Below are positions 39,201-45,200 of a DNA stretch of 64,000 bases, piece by piece; the stretch's first letter is position 1; the number at the start of each line of letters is the position of its first letter. A program made the position numbers. The DNA is from Perna viridis (Eukaryota): positions 33,786,885 to 33,850,884 of the forward strand of contig CM074513.1 in assembly GCA_037379345.1 (NCBI GenBank), written 5' to 3'.

Positions 39201-42200
39201 TTTTTTATGCCCTTGTGACAAACAGTCAGAAGGGCATATTAATCTACCCCTGTCCATCTGTCCATTTTACTCAGAAATATATGGATCATGGCTTGCCAGC
39301 CATCTCCTTGTACAGTTTTTGAACTACATCTAAAATATTTTACAAGATATTTCTACACATGATGAAGGCGTGCTGGATCAAAGGATTTTGATTTTCATCA
39401 GAAAAAGGGCTATATGACTAGTCCGGTTATCTCCTGTAGTCTTTGAACTACATCTAAAATATTTATTGCAAGATGTTTCTATACATAATGAATGTGTGCA
39501 AGGTCATAGGATATCGATGTTTGCGGAATATTACAGAACTAGGTGATAGTTGGACTTTGGAATATTACGGAACTGGGTGATAGTTGGACTTCGGAATATT
39601 ATGGATCTGATGATATTTGGACTTTGTAGTTTTTGTCAGAAATATACCCCAAGCAAGAAAGTTAGGGATTTATTTTTGGAGATATTAACATTTTTTATGC
39701 ATCCATCAGTCTGTCCATCAGTCCTCTTTTTCTCATCGCAAGTATTTTTGCATTGCTTAGCCTAACATACCAAATATTTACTGCATCAACCAACTATACA
39801 TAACCTTTCTGAATCTGCAAACCATGTCTTTATACAAAAATAAACATGTTCTTAATTTGGCTAATCTAGCGAGCAGGGGCATCATTAGTGTCTTACAGAC
39901 ACATTTGATTTACTAAAAAAAAAATCACTACTAACAAATGATACAGGGGCTCCTGTGGCAAACAGGGCTTCTAGTTTAATGAAAGAGTCAAGTGTTGCTT
40001 TTCTGAATATATTTATAGTTGGTGTGGTTAGGAATTATGAGCTTTTTTAGATACAAATTCTTCCTTGAATACTTTAATTTTCTTCAGTCACTTTATCAGT
40101 CTTAACTCATAAAAGATTGGTGTGCAGATGCCACAGATAAAACACTGCAGTAGCTTTGTTTGATTAAATGAGTGTTCAGTACTCTGAAAGGTTCTTCAAA
40201 ATATTGCAAAAGTAATTTGGTTTCAAGTATTTGATCAGTTTGTGTGATGCTAAAAACATTTTTTTAAACTTTGTCTCAATATTTGCTGTAGATTGTTAAA
40301 GGGTGTTCTGCCATATTATTTGACAGAAACTAACCAATAAATGGCTTCAAAGAATAATAGCAACTATCAAAGACAACCAAAGCTTTAATTTATTTCAATA
40401 TACAATGCATTTCTTTCTTTAATGTGGTTTCAGTTGCATGTTACAGTCACAAAACTTCATGTTAAAAATACATTCTAATTTAATAACTTTACTTTTACTC
40501 CAGTCATTTACAAAGCTAGATAAATAATTGATATTCCTGGTTTTTCTTGATTATTTGAAATTTATGGCAGTCGTTGACAAGAATATATTTGAATAACAGA
40601 TACATGACTCAATCAATACAGATTTTATGTATTTAATTCTGAAAAGTGAAAGAAAAAAATAATGTGAAGCTTGATCAATAAAATGTCAGCCTTTCCACCA
40701 GGGCTTGTCAGGATGTGAAGGGTAATTTTGTAAAGATCATTAGTGGAAATGAGTTGAAGAGAAGATCATTTGTAGGAATCAAATGTCACTGATATAATTG
40801 TCATATTGTGTCATTAAAGCTTAGTGTCCTTGTTACCAGTGTCTAGAAAGTCTTTCTATCATTATACATCTTTTAAATGAAAAATCACTTAAGAAAAAAA
40901 AATAATAGACATTGTCGTAAAAATGGAAAATCTGAAAAACTATATTATCATATGACTTTAGTGCATGGCAGACACAAGTTATGAGACTGACAAATGGTTA
41001 AGATGACTTCCTACAAGTAGTGTTTTCTTGCAGCGAGGATGTCACTACAAAGTCATTAATGACTATTCTTTATTTGAAACAATTCAATCTCTCTGTGAAA
41101 GCCTTAGTTAGGAATCAGTCAGTATTATAGAATTTGATTTCTTTTTTTAGGGATACTTCTAAAAATATTTTTCTAAGACATTTACTCAAATTACAGATGA
41201 TGATGGTCAAAGAGGTTTTAGAAATAATTATAATATGAAATCAGGACAATAGGATGGTGGTAAACTCAGACTACACTTCCAATAATTGTTGCTGGAACAC
41301 AAATTTATAAAAGTAACTATAGATATCTATTGATTACTGGTAACCATGATTTGTCAATAATGCAATGTTTTAATATCAAGCTGAGAATTTCACAATTTAA
41401 AAAAATGTCAAAACTGTGTTGATGTTTTTTTTTTTTTTTTTTTTAAAAAGGCATATTGTTAGATATATCAATTCAATGATAATTTGAGAAATACAGCTAA
41501 GATCATTTGTTGTATCAATAACAGAAGTTGTGTAATAACAATTTGATCAGAGGCTTTTTATTCAATTTATACAAAAATGTATATGCTTTGGTTTAGATTT
41601 CATTTAACTATAGATTTATATTTGATTAAATTTTATGCCCTTGGGTCTAATTGTAGGAAGAAATATTCAATGAGTAAAAATATGACGGAATCTTTGATCA
41701 TGATTTTTCAACTCTGCTTACTTACATCATTTGGCACTTTTCTCAATGATAAATATATTTGTGCTTTTTAAGAAATGATTGACATTATACAGAAGAATAT
41801 TAATCTGATTTTCATTTTGGATTCATAAAATTTGGGTTAAACATGATATTTTTAAGTAAGCTTAAAATTGAAGTTGTAATGGAAGAATAAAAACAACTTT
41901 TACTTTTTTTCCTTTCATTTTGAAGCATTCAACAACAACAACAGCACAGTGAGATAAATGTTAGTCTATACTGTTTGTTGTAACAAAAATACAACTGTTG
42001 TTGTATGATAAAAAATACATGATAAACAAGTGAGAGTACATTAGTTACAGTGATACTGGTTGGATGTTCTATGTCATACACATTTAGAAAAACTATACTG
42101 TTGGCAAGGACCAGTGGAAACATTAAAACTGTGTAAAGAAACATTAGTTTGATGATTAATTTTGTTAATTGGATCTCTTCTCGAAGACGTCGGTTCAAAA

Positions 42201-45200
42201 TTAATGCTGTTTCTGTTCTATACTTAGCATCGATTGGCCGAGATGTATTAACACTGGTACATAATCCTATTATAGATAGAAACATAAGTAAAATGGGTAA
42301 TCCTATAAAAATACAAGTTAAGTACCAGAAATAGACAACATCATACTCAGCATGCTTGCCTGTCTCCTGTATTACTTGGTAAATGTCAGGATTTTGATCA
42401 GATTGATCCCAGTAATTATTGGTTTTTGTTCCATAATCTTCGGATGTGTGATTATTGTAATTAGTGATATCGTATTGCCAAAGACGTGGGACGGTGCTAA
42501 TCAATCCTACAATTATCACCAGACCCGAAATGATCCAGGATTGTGTTGATGATACTTGATTATAAGTCTGGTACAATGTTACAGTTAGTGTTCGCTCTAA
42601 AGCAGCAGAAAGAATAATCCAGATTATGATGTAGCGAGTCCACTCATGACAAAGAACAGAATAATATGTCATCTCTGAAATTATCTTTTCTATATAGTGT
42701 GGAAGCATTACAAATATAGATGTTATCACATGAATTAGTGTTGTTATTGACAGAACAAAGAAATATGTATCAATAGACAATCTGATTTGCTTAGCCAGCA
42801 CAACTACATTGATGACCTGTCCAAGTAAACTAAGCACCAGAATGACTGGTACCAGAACATAACAGATGTAGTTAGTGACTTCTATCCAACCCCGTGTTTC
42901 CATTGCAGTTGTGTTAAGGCACAGTATTGACAGACAGTTACGTGGGGGTAAAAGAAGCAATGGTTCCTGTGTATACTTATAGTTCCACATGTTCAAAGTC
43001 TTATATTTGATGAAAGTGAATTTTCACTGAATCAAATTCCTTGCACATGAAACTAAAACATTGATCCATTTTTCGGTATTGTGATGGAAGAAAAAACTGC
43101 CCAAAGAAATTCAGAATTTTTGTTGTAACATTTTAGATTTATTTTATCTAAATGTCCTAACAGCTTTTCTGCTGTCACTTGATGTATTTTGTTTCTGCAG
43201 TGAGAGTTTTTAGTCAATAAATCACCTGCGCTATATAGCATTGTTTGTCGTCACATGGTCATGCATTTTGCAGTAGTATGTTTATATTCTCCTGTGGTTT
43301 GGTGAAGCATGACACTAATCCATGTAGTTACAGTAGTGAACACAGAGTTTCTATTCAATTCCTATCTTAATGTCTCACAATATTTCCATATTTGGTTTTT
43401 TTTTCCTGTTGTAATTGAAAACTGTGTTGTTCCCAAGTTTCCTGATTATCATTATTGAACCCTCATATGGTAAAAATTCCCAATAGTTTTGACATATTCA
43501 TGTTACGTCTCAGCAAAGTAATTAAGTGAACATTTTCTGTATCCTTTGATGACATTGTAAACCTTTTGCTCTTTTTTTCCAGTTTTTTATCAAATAAATT
43601 CTGCATTGGTTTACGTTCTGTAATTGTAAATAACATCAACAGATAGATGAATAGATGAGACTTTTCTCTACAATCACTGTAATTTAATCCTGGGTTTCTT
43701 TTATTTCCAATTGTATCATGAGGAAAGCCAATATTTTTTCTCTGTTAATATGCTTAGAATAAGACAGCTTATAGTAGTAACAGTCATTTCACATAATTTC
43801 TAGGGTATTGAATTATTTCTCTGCCAATAAAACATTTTAACATAAATAAAGACCATATTTGACATTTGCTAACCTGGTAGTGGACAATATTCAAACCTTG
43901 ATAGGTTGGTGGAATATTGATGTTTGAGTGAAAATGAAACATTGCATGGTCAGACATTTTTCTTTGGAACCATTTTTCTATCACTTATCAGTTCTTATTA
44001 TTCCCTTGTGGAACGACTTTAAATGAAGTATTTAATTGTATGCTATCTGTCAGTCATTGAAATTAGATTCCAATGCAATTTTTTCCCAGATATTTATAGA
44101 AAGGAAATCAGCAGACCTTTCATTTATTTTGTCTTGTTCAGATTATTTTTCAATACAAGTACTTGTAAAATACATTTAAAGGTGTATCCTTGGGAGGATA
44201 GAGCAAGACTTTGTTCTTAATGTGAAATGTGATGTTATGGTGAGATGTTCAGAACTGATATTATTCTGTTGATAGGTGACATCATAGTTGATTTAAGGCA
44301 TAATAAGCCAATATTTTTTCAGTAACTTATTACTAGTTATTTGAAATTGAAAACATAAAATTTATTTATCAAGTTAGTCTTGTCACTGCTTATTAAGATT
44401 TGATAACTCTTTTATACTGTAAAATTTTCATTATGGGTAGGTAAAGTGAAGGAACCAGAAAAATATGCATGCTAATACATCAAGATCTGAATTGGACTTT
44501 TATATGAAATGAAATTTTAGAAACAGACACGTTGGATTGTTTTACTTTTAACAACTTTAGTTATTGAAGTTCAATAAGTCTTTGGTTAGATAAAGCTTCT
44601 TCAGTGGCTCAGTGAATAAGATGTGAAAGTGTCGAGAAAGATTTGTCATTTTAATGATAAATGGATATAAATGCTTTCATATGGCAAAGATTTATTGTTT
44701 AAGAAGGAGAAAAAGAAATACTCTTCTCTCATTTGTTTCTATAAGTGTTTGAATAATTGCATTAGCAGTCAAAACTTAAAGAGATAGAGATTGATTATAC
44801 TTCAGTGACTGAAATGCAAGGAAACCAATATAAGCTACTTAATGTATAGTGCAGTAAATTGTAAGATAATGTATAAAATGATCATTTAATACTCAATGAT
44901 TTAGTAGTGTGTCTTTTACATTCATTTATAAATTAGAGAGTGTATAGTTTTTTTTCTTGTCATTTCATCTCTTTGTAGAAAATAAAAGGCAAGTTAATAA
45001 AGCTATTTATTGTGTTTTGGAATTAATTGTCTGTTTTTATATGTCCCTATTACAAAATGTTATGTGATATCATGAGTATGGAAAGTGAAGATAAAACTCC
45101 TGTTGAATAATTTAAAAAAAAAAGAGAGAGATATGTTCAGTTTATATCAAATTGAGCCCTGAAAATAAATTTTGTAACATCATTGGGGACATTGCATAAT

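What the first reader, a model, noticed from the sequence alone, without database searches (positions are those of the whole stretch)
41929..42990. Intact orphan GPCR nested antisense inside a motile-cilia dynein assembly gene
Seen: an uninterrupted 7TM ORF on the opposite strand in the largest DNAAF9 intron (37822-47796). The surrounding ~7 kb has few recognisable transposons compared with other introns, which suggests constraint from UTRs or regulatory DNA. Inference: a host/nested gene pair that may be co-regulated or mutually exclusive in ciliated cells, for example a chemo- or peptide sensor of gill or larval ciliary bands.
Basis: partly seen in the sequence, partly recalled or inferred. 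Interest (0 to 1): 0.65.

Follow-up and report, generated by a model that had tools for sequence, protein, structure and literature searches.

The report
Divergent receptor gene inside DAAF9 intron
An intact, intronless, very divergent rhodopsin-type receptor gene lies backwards inside a long intron of a cilia dynein-assembly gene, most likely as an incidental, possibly retroposed, copy from a fast-evolving receptor family, which is an ordinary arrangement.

Summary
An ATG-to-TGA ORF of 353 codons lies at 41929-42990 on the minus strand. It is the longest ORF in the window, 364 codons stop to stop, against a maximum of 168 in 100 shuffles. It sits inside a canonical GT..AG intron (37822-47796) of a plus-strand DAAF9 gene, found exon by exon with Pfam.

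The protein has seven hydrophobic helices and a positive-inside charge pattern. Its only PDB sequence matches are class A GPCRs, 11 of 11. Its nearest ESM Atlas clusters are rotifer and mollusc 7tm_1 or "chemosensory receptor" families. It fails Pfam 7tm_1 outright. It lacks N1.50, D2.50, W6.48 and NP of NPxxY, but keeps R3.50 (ERT), P6.50, Y7.53 and helix 8.

An A20 run 485 nt past the stop is followed by a 12-nt repeat whose second copy lies 427 nt before the ATG. That is a retrocopy signature, with an empirical false-positive rate of 2-5%.

Nothing supports co-regulation with DAAF9. Verdict: a new member of a known kind, of low interest.

The parts
41929..42990 (-). Intronless ORF of 353 codons plus stop. 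It encodes a divergent rhodopsin-like 7TM receptor. A second in-frame ATG at codon 30 is an alternative start.
41425..41444 (-). Uninterrupted A20 run 485 nt downstream of the stop codon; candidate poly(A) tail of a retrocopy.
41410..41421 (-). 3' copy of the exact 12-nt direct repeat (CAACACAGTTTT on the minus strand), 3 nt after the A20 run; candidate target-site duplication.
   Evidence: (family D10)
43418..43429 (-). 5' copy of the same 12-nt direct repeat, 427 nt upstream of the ATG.
   Evidence: (family D10)
41425..43417 (-). Candidate retroposed unit of about 2.0 kb: 427-nt leader, ORF, 484-nt trailer and A20.
   Evidence: Inference. GC is 31.7% against 30.7% for the intron.
37822..47796 (+). 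DAAF9 intron of 9,975 nt (GT..AG) that contains the receptor ORF.
   Evidence: In this intron 0 of 42 plus-strand ORFs of 40 aa or more and 0 of 103 ORFs of 20-39 aa in 37832-46041 match DAAF9.
37740..37821 (+). DAAF9 exon of 82 nt, ending in phase 1. The enclosing ORF 37740-37892 matches DAAF9 profile positions 110-140.
   Evidence: E 2.4e-4, below Pfam's cut-off; splice sites
47797..47833 (+). Putative 37-nt DAAF9 micro-exon.
   Evidence: It has no Pfam hit of its own. Support comes from the CAG| and |GTAACT sites, phase compatibility on both sides, and profile bookkeeping.
50985..51069 (+). DAAF9 exon of 85 nt. The ORF 50881-51087 matches profile positions 149-175.
   Evidence: E 0.015, weak
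36438..36605 (+). ORF holding a DAAF9 exon (profile positions 64-111).
   Evidence: E 0.039, weak; collinear
53609..53803 (+). ORF holding a DAAF9 exon (profile positions 222-270).
   Evidence: E 5.3e-7
59220..59462 (+). ORF holding a DAAF9 exon (profile positions 366-425).
   Evidence: E 1.3e-6
23151..24884 (+). Three ORFs holding DAAF9_N exons: 23151-23528, 24113-24289 and 24714-24884 (profile positions 68-184). A weak fourth lies at 19236-19379.
   Evidence: E 5.8e-21, 2.5e-11, 1.6e-9, 5.1e-4

Best explanation
The ORF is a real, intact, single-exon gene copy for a very divergent rhodopsin-like (class A-derived) seven-helix receptor. It is of the kind that forms large, fast-evolving, lineage-specific, mostly intronless families in molluscs, rotifers and other spiralians, which are treated as candidate chemoreceptors.

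It lies antisense in a 9,975-nt intron of DAAF9 because a copy was inserted there. The most likely route is LINE-mediated retroposition of an mRNA, given an A20 tail and a 12-nt target-site duplication bounding about 2.0 kb. The nesting is therefore incidental rather than a regulatory design.

If it is expressed, the protein would sit N-out/C-in in the membrane. It would signal through the conserved R3.50 (ERT), P6.50, Y7.53 and helix-8/palmitoyl-Cys end. It lacks the usual N1.50-D2.50-N7.49 polar core.

Shown: the ORF, its topology, its class A likeness, the intron, the A20 run and the repeat. Inferred: retroposition (my estimate about 0.5), expression and function (about 0.5), and chemosensory use (by analogy only).
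For: Reality of the ORF:
- It spans 364 sense codons stop to stop, against a maximum of 168 in 100 shuffles.

Class A likeness:
- All 11 PDB sequences matched at E<=10 are class A GPCRs: 7 cholecystokinin-A receptor entries (best 7e-5) and 4 beta-1 adrenergic entries.
- The match comes as two collinear stretches, TM1-TM3 and TM6-helix 8, and the helix-8 NK.(F/Y)R..F motif and the terminal Cys cluster are aligned.
- The best Atlas hit scores 0.97 with 190 of 256 shared features, and all ten of the best hits that carry a family fall in one family or clan.
- Those clusters are from Rotifera and Mollusca, carry PF00001 on only 31-40% of members, and include a 'Chemosensory receptor A' cluster.
- Among unnamed clusters the best is a 'GPCR family 1' cluster at 0.95.
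- Seven helices with positive-inside charge. N-glycosylation sequons sit in the N-terminus (N26) and ECL2 (N180).

Fit to published Aplysia candidate chemoreceptors (PMC2700072, passages):
- They are largely intronless, 319-364 aa for subfamily b, with a short N-terminus and ERC in place of DRY. Here the ORF is intronless, 353 aa, with ERT.

Insertion:
- A20 at 41444-41425 is followed after 3 nt by a 12-nt exact repeat whose other copy is at 43429-43418.
- Of the 6 A-runs of 12 nt or more in the window, only this one and the tail of the LINE at 26464-31312 have such a flanking repeat. The LINE's repeat is 14 nt and exact. This shows that the test detects a real retroposition in the same gene and the same orientation.
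- The empirical false-positive rate of the 12-mer test is 2.2% locally and 3.5-5.4% window-wide.
- There is no paralogue in the 64 kb: every non-self tblastn HSP has E>=3.1. So this is a dispersed singleton, not a tandem array.
- Retroposition as a source of intronless receptor genes in bivalves is argued for nAChRs in PMC6896357 (passages).
Against: - Pfam finds no family at all: 0 for the whole ORF at E<=1, and no 7tm family in 4 sub-segments at E<=10.
- The fold model is poor (pLDDT 48.9). Foldseek against the PDB gave 3 matches at E<=10 and none at E<=0.001.
- In the alignment N1.50 is Q and NP of NPxxY is QQ. No acidic residue is in place for D2.50, W6.48 is missing, and there is no Cys in ECL2.
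- PMC11886862 (passage) says lophotrochozoan lineage-specific class A expansions keep DRY and NPxxY. This copy is therefore more aberrant than is typical, or it may be decaying.
- Against retroposition: there is no AATAAA or ATTAAA in the last 60 nt before the A20, and the nearest AATAAA is 113 nt upstream.
- Three extra bases separate the tail from the repeat.
- A 12-mer repeat has a 2-5% chance rate.
- The 427-nt leader has 11 ATGs against 7.5 expected, so it does not look like a selected 5'UTR.
- Class A genes are often intronless anyway, so the lack of introns says nothing.
- No parent gene, orthologue or transcript could be looked for.
Confidence: 0.45

Rival explanations
1. Dead-on-arrival or decaying retro-pseudogene. 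The copy has no promoter and is not used. The ORF is intact only because the insertion is young, and the missing class A switch residues reflect a defunct lineage.
For: - The tail and direct repeat are present.
- The leader shows no depletion of ATGs.
- No canonical poly(A) signal lies near the tail.
- Several hallmark residues are lost.
- In bivalve nAChRs, more intron-poor than intron-rich copies are silent (PMC6896357, passage).
Against: - 353 sense codons stay open at 35% GC, where random sequence rarely passes about 170 codons.
- The LINE next door has an equally clean A20 and a perfect 14-nt repeat, yet its coding region is broken into many pieces (ORF list). A clean tail therefore does not prove youth.
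- The residue changes N to Q and P to Q need one or two base changes each. They more plausibly come from the parent family than from decay in place (inference).
- R3.50, P5.50, P6.50, Y7.53 and helix 8 are kept.
Confidence: 0.27
2. A resident receptor gene that arose by DNA-level duplication or is old, with its own promoter and UTRs. On this view the A20 run and the 12-nt repeat are coincidental.
For: - The chance rate for the repeat is 2-5%.
- There is no poly(A) signal in the 60 nt before the A-run, while an AATAAA at 41562-41557 could serve a shorter 3'UTR of its own.
- A-runs of 12 nt or more are common here, 6 in the window.
- A TATATAG-like box and a pyrimidine-rich ..TTTTAG lie upstream of the ATG (read; a weak pointer).
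Against: - The repeat sits at the one place where a target-site duplication is expected, within 3 nt of the tail. Its partner is upstream of the ATG rather than inside the ORF.
- There is no paralogue nearby, whereas DNA duplication of such families usually gives tandem arrays. PMC11886862 and PMC2700072 describe clustering (passages).
Confidence: 0.2
3. One reading: a conserved, functionally coupled host/nested pair, in which a ciliated-cell chemo- or peptide receptor is co-regulated with, or mutually exclusive to, DAAF9.
For: - The receptor is antisense and wholly intronic.
- DAAF9 is a dynein-arm packaging factor of cilia (bioRxiv 10.1101/2024.08.15.608058; only the start of the abstract was seen, in the listing).
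- About 5.5 kb around the ORF has no intra-window repeat.
Against: - No evidence of conservation or expression could be obtained.
- The repeat-free stretch is not unusual, since 12-22 kb is also at 0%.
- There is no Rfam family or tRNA in the window.
- The insertion hallmarks point to a recent arrival.
- The fly and mammal literature finds nested genes young, divergent in expression from their hosts, and not selected for co-regulation.
Confidence: 0.05
4. Not a GPCR: a chance ORF, or a member of another multi-pass membrane family.
For: - Pfam finds no 7tm family.
- The fold is low-confidence and Foldseek gives nothing usable.
- The per-stretch PDB E-values are weak, 0.072 and 1.6.
Against: - The ORF is far longer than chance allows.
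- 11 of 11 PDB matches are class A receptors aligned in register.
- The Atlas top score is 0.97; 0.95 or more occurs about once in 100 for shuffled proteins, by the tool's own figures.
Confidence: 0.03

Closest known systems
[quoted passage not shown]
   Same: - Rhodopsin-like seven-helix protein with a single coding exon.
- 353 aa, against 319-364 aa for AcCRb.
- Short N-terminus with an N-glycosylation sequon.
- An E-R-x motif (ERT here, ERC there) replaces DRY.
- Sequence is at or below the limit of Pfam 7tm_1 detection.
- The nearest Atlas clusters are mollusc and rotifer families, one of them named 'Chemosensory receptor A'.
   Different: - It is a singleton in 64 kb rather than part of a tandem cluster.
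- It lies inside another gene's intron.
- NPxxY reads QQxxY and N1.50 reads Q, whereas PMC11886862 reports DRY and NPxxY as the common motifs of these expansions.
- Membership by phylogeny could not be tested.
Processed retrocopies (retrogenes or retro-pseudogenes) made by LINE machinery
   Same: The unit is intronless. It ends in an uninterrupted A20 and is bounded by a 12-nt exact direct repeat. A LINE with an APE-type endonuclease and RT, an A20 tail and a 14-nt repeat lies 11 kb away in the same orientation.
   Different: - No poly(A) signal lies within 60 nt of the tail.
- There are 3 extra nt at the 3' junction.
- The parent gene is unknown.
- The repeat could be chance at the 2-5% level.
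Opposite-strand intronic nested genes, as catalogued in Drosophila and mammals (PMC3814207, PMC5174743, PMC11694760)
   Same: A short gene, possibly a young duplicate, lies wholly within a long intron of a larger conserved host on the opposite strand.
   Different: The age, expression and evolutionary rate of this copy are unknown. The organism is unidentified; a spiralian is likely but not shown.
Cholecystokinin-A receptor and other peptide- or amine-type class A GPCRs (best PDB matches, e.g. 9bkj_R)
   Same: TM1-TM3 and TM6-helix 8 align in register. P6.50, Y7.53, the helix-8 NK.(F/Y)R..F motif and the C-terminal Cys are shared.
   Different: The match is only 25.6 bits. The receptor ends at the Cys cluster with no C-tail. 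It lacks N1.50, D2.50, W6.48, N7.49/P7.50 and the ECL2 Cys. Nothing indicates orthology with any peptide receptor.

Membership tests
Class A (rhodopsin-like) GPCR, Pfam PF00001 7tm_1 and allied 7TM_GPCR_Sr* models | Match to the family HMM at or above the curated cut-off | tested here: not met
   The whole ORF matched 0 families at E<=1. The 364-aa stop-to-stop form matched 0 at E<=0.01. None of 4 sub-segments matched a 7tm family at E<=10.
Class A (rhodopsin-like) GPCR | Seven transmembrane helices, N-terminus outside and C-terminus inside | tested here: met
   Seven hydropathy peaks. Seven long helices plus a short terminal helix in the low-confidence AF2 model. K+R is 10 in the cytoplasmic segments and 3 in the extracellular loops; sequons sit at N26 and N180 on the outside.
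Class A (rhodopsin-like) GPCR | Significant sequence similarity, in register, to known class A receptors | tested here: met
   11 of 11 PDB matches at E<=10 are class A, best 7e-5, in two collinear stretches. The match is weak: the per-stretch E-values are 0.072 and 1.6.
Class A (rhodopsin-like) GPCR | E/DRY with R3.50 at the cytoplasmic end of TM3 | tested here: met
   E132-R133-T134 lies at the end of the third hydrophobic segment. The assignment is by position; I did not see this stretch aligned residue by residue. The motif names are recalled.
Class A (rhodopsin-like) GPCR | N1.50, D2.50 and N7.49-P7.50 (NPxxY) polar core | tested here: not met
   In the alignment to the CCK-A receptor the GN of TM1 reads GQ (Q58, from the GQVIN motif at 57). 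The TM2 ..SD.. is aligned to ..T-LIH.. with no acidic residue. NPIIY is aligned to QQQLY (330-334), so only Y7.53 is kept. The residue numbering scheme is recalled.
Class A (rhodopsin-like) GPCR | CWxP in TM6 and the TM3-ECL2 disulfide | tested here: not met
   TM6 reads L-M-F-P: the proline is present (P292) but there is no W. C114 is at the top of TM3, but no Cys lies in 172-217 (Cys list).
Class A (rhodopsin-like) GPCR | Amphipathic helix 8 followed by palmitoylatable Cys | tested here: met
   NKQYRLTF (338-345) is aligned to NKRFRLGF of the CCK-A receptor, followed by CCCCC at 349-353.
Lophotrochozoan lineage-specific or chemoreceptor-type class A expansions | Single coding exon, about 320-365 aa, short N-terminus, ER(C)-type TM3 motif | tested here: met
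   compared with passages of PMC2700072.
Lophotrochozoan lineage-specific or chemoreceptor-type class A expansions | Tandem clustering with paralogues | tested here: not met
   tblastn of the protein against the window found only the self hit; the other 6 HSPs have E>=3.1. This covers only 64 kb.
Lophotrochozoan lineage-specific or chemoreceptor-type class A expansions | Phylogenetic placement in a species- or lineage-specific clade without one-to-one orthologues; expression in chemosensory tissue | not testable with these tools
Processed retrocopy | 3' poly(A) tract and flanking target-site duplication | tested here: met
   A20 at 41444-41425 and a 12-nt exact repeat at 41421-41410 and 43429-43418. 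The chance rate is 2.2-5.4%. The LINE serves as a positive control.
Processed retrocopy | Poly(A) signal 10-35 nt before the tail | tested here: not met
   There is no AATAAA or ATTAAA in the last 60 nt, and the nearest AATAAA is at 41562-41557.
Processed retrocopy | An identifiable parent gene (ideally with introns) elsewhere in the genome | not testable with these tools
Host/nested gene pair | Nested coding sequence wholly within one host intron, on the opposite strand | tested here: met
   No DAAF9 match appears among the 42 ORFs of 40 aa or more in the intron, the 103 ORFs of 20-39 aa in 37832-46041, or those scanned in 46300-47796.
Host/nested gene pair | Conservation of the arrangement and linked expression | not testable with these tools
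   No orthologous loci or transcript data were available.

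The most novel reading that the evidence does not exclude
The nesting is old and functional. On this reading the receptor belongs to a spiralian class A-derived family that has lost the whole canonical activation core (N1.50, D2.50, W6.48, N7.49/P7.50) yet still signals. It is transcribed antisense from within the DAAF9 intron in multiciliated or ciliary-band cells, so that sensing by the receptor and dynein-arm supply by the host are coupled, either through shared chromatin or through transcriptional interference.
Probability: 0.04. 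Interest if true: 0.6.

Novelty: new member of a known kind. Interest (0 to 1): 0.2.

Why it matters
As it stands, this is an annotation point. Gene finders that rely on Pfam would miss the receptor, and it should be annotated as a separate antisense single-exon gene or retrocopy inside DAAF9.

It adds one example of how dispersed, intronless receptor copies arise in a genome with active poly(A)-tailed LINEs. It is also an example of a class A-derived receptor that keeps R3.50, Y7.53 and helix 8 but has lost the polar core.

It would matter more if the copy proved to be expressed and under purifying selection, because that would give a natural test of signalling without D2.50 and NPxxY. It would also matter more if the nesting were conserved.

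Tried and rejected
- Pfam on the whole ORF and on four segments gave nothing useful.
- The AlphaFold2 single-sequence model was too poor to use. Foldseek against the PDB with it gave only 3 matches at E 5.7-8.9, including one beta-2 receptor fusion, which is not evidence.
I did not use the second structure job.
- Translating whole frames of the intron for Pfam was rejected by the tool because of stop codons. I scanned stop-to-stop ORFs one by one instead.
- The exons for DAAF9_N 184-209 and DAAF9 1-64 were not found among 133 ORFs in 24.8-26.5 kb and 31.3-37.8 kb.
- A search for a paralogue in the window found none.
- Rfam and tRNA scans found nothing.
- The A22 run at 45996-45975 has no flanking repeat of 9 nt or more.
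- TE-paucity as a sign of constraint is rejected, because other 10-kb stretches are equally repeat-free by the same test. That test only sees repeats with a second copy inside the window.
- The bacterial promoter/terminator scanner, complex prediction and the bacterial genome collection were not used because they do not apply here.
- The literature search for 'DNAAF9' or 'nested gene' returned 1,318 papers. None of the 10 listed holds both terms, and this does not show that the pair is unreported.

Full report
**1. The observation**

A single ATG-to-TGA ORF of 353 codons lies at 41929-42990 on the minus strand. Stop to stop it spans 364 codons, which makes it the longest ORF in any frame of the window; the next is 283 codons. 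One hundred shuffles of the window gave longest ORFs averaging 124 codons and never above 168. In DNA of about 31% G+C this ORF is not a chance product. The window has no N. Its composition and gene content gave me no reason to take it for human.

**2. The host gene**

I searched plus-strand stop-to-stop ORFs one by one against Pfam. I made no joined spliced model, so that step is left out.

| ORF | Pfam profile positions | E-value |
|---|---|---|
| 19236-19379 | DAAF9_N 18-44 | 5.1e-4 |
| 23151-23528 | DAAF9_N 68-126 | 5.8e-21 |
| 24113-24289 | DAAF9_N 125-157 | 2.5e-11 |
| 24714-24884 | DAAF9_N 139-184 | 1.6e-9 |
| 36438-36605 | DAAF9 64-111 | 0.039 |
| 37740-37892 | DAAF9 110-140 | 2.4e-4 |
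| 50881-51087 | DAAF9 149-175 | 0.015 |
| 53609-53803 | DAAF9 222-270 | 5.3e-7 |
| 59220-59462 | DAAF9 366-425 | 1.3e-6 |

- each scanned 141 ORFs. One search scanned 125 and one search scanned 133.
- The matches are collinear, and several of them are individually weak.
- The exon at 37740 ends ..ATG|GTAAGA at 37821, with one base carried over.
- A 37-nt stretch at 47797-47833 is bounded by ..TTTCAG| and |GTAACT. It carries the phase to two.
- The exon beginning at 50985, after ..CCTTACAG|, starts on the third base of a codon in the Pfam-supported frame.
- The 12 residues of the micro-exon also fill the gap between profile positions of about 135 and 149.
- The micro-exon has no Pfam hit of its own.
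- No other DAAF9 match lies in the intron. This covers the 42 plus-strand ORFs of 40 aa or more and the 103 ORFs of 20-39 aa in 37832-46041.

Whether it is the largest intron cannot be said. The 24885-36437 interval must contain exons that I could not find, and the gene continues beyond the window.

**3. What the ORF encodes**

Evidence for a class A-type receptor:
- Hydropathy gives seven peaks.
- The single-sequence AlphaFold2 model has seven long helices and a short terminal one, but confidence is too low to use further (pLDDT 48.9, pTM 0.31). Foldseek with it returned nothing meaningful.
- Loop charges follow the positive-inside rule for an N-out/C-in protein, and sequons sit in the N-terminus and second outer loop.
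- phmmer against the PDB gives 11 sequences at E<=10, all of them class A receptors. Seven are cholecystokinin-A receptor entries (7e-5 to 3.5e-4) and four are beta-1 adrenergic entries (0.17-4.2).
- The match comes as two stretches in the right order, TM1-TM3 and TM6-helix 8.
- The ESM Atlas puts the protein next to rotifer and mollusc clusters that carry PF00001 on only 31-40% of members. It is also close to a mollusc cluster named 'Chemosensory receptor A'. The top score is 0.97; by the tool's own figures, shuffled proteins reach 0.95 about once in 100.
- Among unnamed clusters the best is again a 'GPCR family 1' cluster, at 0.95.

Evidence against simple membership:
- Pfam finds nothing at all, either for the whole protein or for four segments.
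- From the alignment and the positions, the protein keeps C114 at the top of TM3, E-R-T at the end of TM3 and W in TM4. It also keeps P in TM5 and TM6, Y7.53, the helix-8 NK.YR..F motif and a terminal CCCCC.
- It has Q for N1.50, no acidic residue at D2.50, no W6.48, QQ for the NP of NPxxY, and no Cys in the second outer loop.
- The residue numbering and motif names are recalled knowledge; the positions come from the calls.

I therefore call it rhodopsin-like or class A-derived. I do not file it as a Pfam 7tm_1 member.

**4. The closest described kind**

The Aplysia candidate chemoreceptor families are largely intronless. Subfamily b is 319-364 aa, with a short N-terminus and ERC instead of DRY (PMC2700072, passages). 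A survey of 238 lophotrochozoan genomes describes large lineage-specific class A expansions, usually in tandem arrays, that keep DRY and NPxxY (PMC11886862, abstract and passages; its supplements were not seen).

The ORF matches these in architecture and size. It differs in two ways: it is a singleton in this window, and it lacks NPxxY.

**5. How it came to be in the intron**

- On the minus strand, 485 nt past the stop, there is an uninterrupted A20 (41444-41425).
- Three bases later comes a 12-nt word. Its only other copy in the 3 kb examined lies at 43429-43418, 427 nt upstream of the ATG.
- The same scan applied to all six A-runs of 12 nt or more in the window picks out only one other. That one is the tail of a LINE (RVT_1 at 28456-28866 and Exo_endo_phos at 29899-30351, minus strand). 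The LINE's A20 is followed directly by an exact 14-nt repeat of the sequence at its 5' end.
- So the window holds a proven retroposition by poly(A)-tailed LINE machinery, in the same gene and the same orientation.
- When every position is treated as a mock tail end, a 12-mer repeat within 100-7000 nt turns up at 2.2% of local positions and at 3.5-5.4% window-wide. The signature is suggestive, not proof.
- Against it: no AATAAA or ATTAAA lies in the last 60 nt (the nearest is 113 nt away). Three bases intervene at the junction. The putative leader has 11 ATGs where 7.5 are expected.

I put retroposition at about one half. A DNA-level or older origin is the main alternative. Retroposition followed by tandem duplication has been proposed for intronless receptor genes in bivalves (PMC6896357, passages).

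**6. Function**

The intact ORF argues for use or for youth, and I cannot separate the two. The LINE next door has an equally clean tail and repeat, but its coding region is broken into many pieces. This mildly favours constraint on the receptor ORF, or a later arrival.

If the receptor is expressed, the retained R3.50, P6.50, Y7.53 and helix 8/Cys cluster make G-protein coupling the default mechanism. The ligand is unknown, and chemosensory use is inferred by analogy only.

**7.

- The repeat-poor stretch is real: 40.0-45.5 kb has no intra-window repeat, and the intron as a whole is 8.1% covered against 14.1% elsewhere.
- However, 12-22 kb is just as clean by the same test. That test also cannot see repeats without a second copy in the window.
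- No RNA family or tRNA is present.
- Published surveys find nested genes mostly on the opposite strand, young, fast-evolving and narrowly expressed. They find nested genes divergent from their hosts in expression, and they argue against selection for co-regulation (PMC3814207, passages; PMC5174743, abstract; PMC11694760, passages, which reports complex patterns).
- DAAF9/Shulin's role with outer dynein arms I saw only in the start of the abstract in a search listing.

The coupling idea is not excluded, but it has no support here.

**8. What stayed unchecked**

- Homologues, parent gene, orthologous introns, dN/dS, phylogenetic placement and the identity of the organism.
- Expression.
- Supplements of the cited papers, which may hold gene lists and cluster maps bearing on whether this receptor family is already catalogued.

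**9. Verdict**

The ORF is a genuine, well-described feature of an ordinary kind. It is a divergent single-exon class A-type receptor copy lying antisense in a long intron, probably an insertion. It is a new member of a known kind, with interest about 0.2.

Noticed in passing
window 26464-31312 (minus strand): A LINE of about 4.85 kb inside another DAAF9 intron, antisense to the host. RVT_1 lies at 28456-28866 (E 2e-11) and Exo_endo_phos at 29899-30351 (E 0.0034). It has an A20 tail at 26483-26464 and an exact 14-nt flanking direct repeat. Its coding region is split into many stop-to-stop pieces.
   Followed up: partly
window 57490-58838: A minisatellite of 45-bp units, 30 copies, 92% matches, in a DAAF9 intron. 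It accounts for the long ORFs on both strands there (58034-58882 plus, 58442-58849 minus) and for their scattered low-complexity Pfam hits.
   Followed up: partly
window 5459-5740 (plus strand): An ORF with a C-terminal RING finger (zf-C3HC4_3, E 9.2e-16). It is probably the last exon of a separate gene upstream of DAAF9; the rest of that gene was not traced.
   Followed up: no
window 1764-2522 (plus) and 16797-17510 (minus): Two long ORFs of 253 and 238 aa with no credible Pfam family at E<=0.01 and no PDB match better than E 0.02. The first shows a below-threshold transmembrane-type hit. Both are unexplained.
   Followed up: partly
window 39198-39984, 49149-49710, 54893-55215, 56296-56743: A dispersed repeat family at 68-90% identity, present in several DAAF9 introns including the one with the receptor. 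It has 172-bp tandem units at 49215-49718 and a 34-bp x 3 array at 39525-39626. It may be a tandem-repeat-bearing non-autonomous element.
   Followed up: no
window 45975-45996 (minus strand): A second long A-run (A22) in the same intron, with no flanking direct repeat of 9 nt or more within 7 kb. Its origin is unknown.
   Followed up: partly
window 60539-60694 (plus strand): A weak remnant of a hAT-transposase dimerisation domain (E 0.0011, below the cut-off).
   Followed up: no
window 8001-10000: This 2-kb bin is about 91% covered by sequence repeated elsewhere in the window, with up to 8 copies. It is the densest repeat block in the window and was not characterised.
   Followed up: no
window 24885-36437: The exons for DAAF9_N positions 184-209 and DAAF9 positions 1-64 were not detected among 133 plus-strand ORFs of 20 aa or more outside the LINE. 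Either this part of the protein is poorly conserved or the exons are very short.
   Followed up: partly
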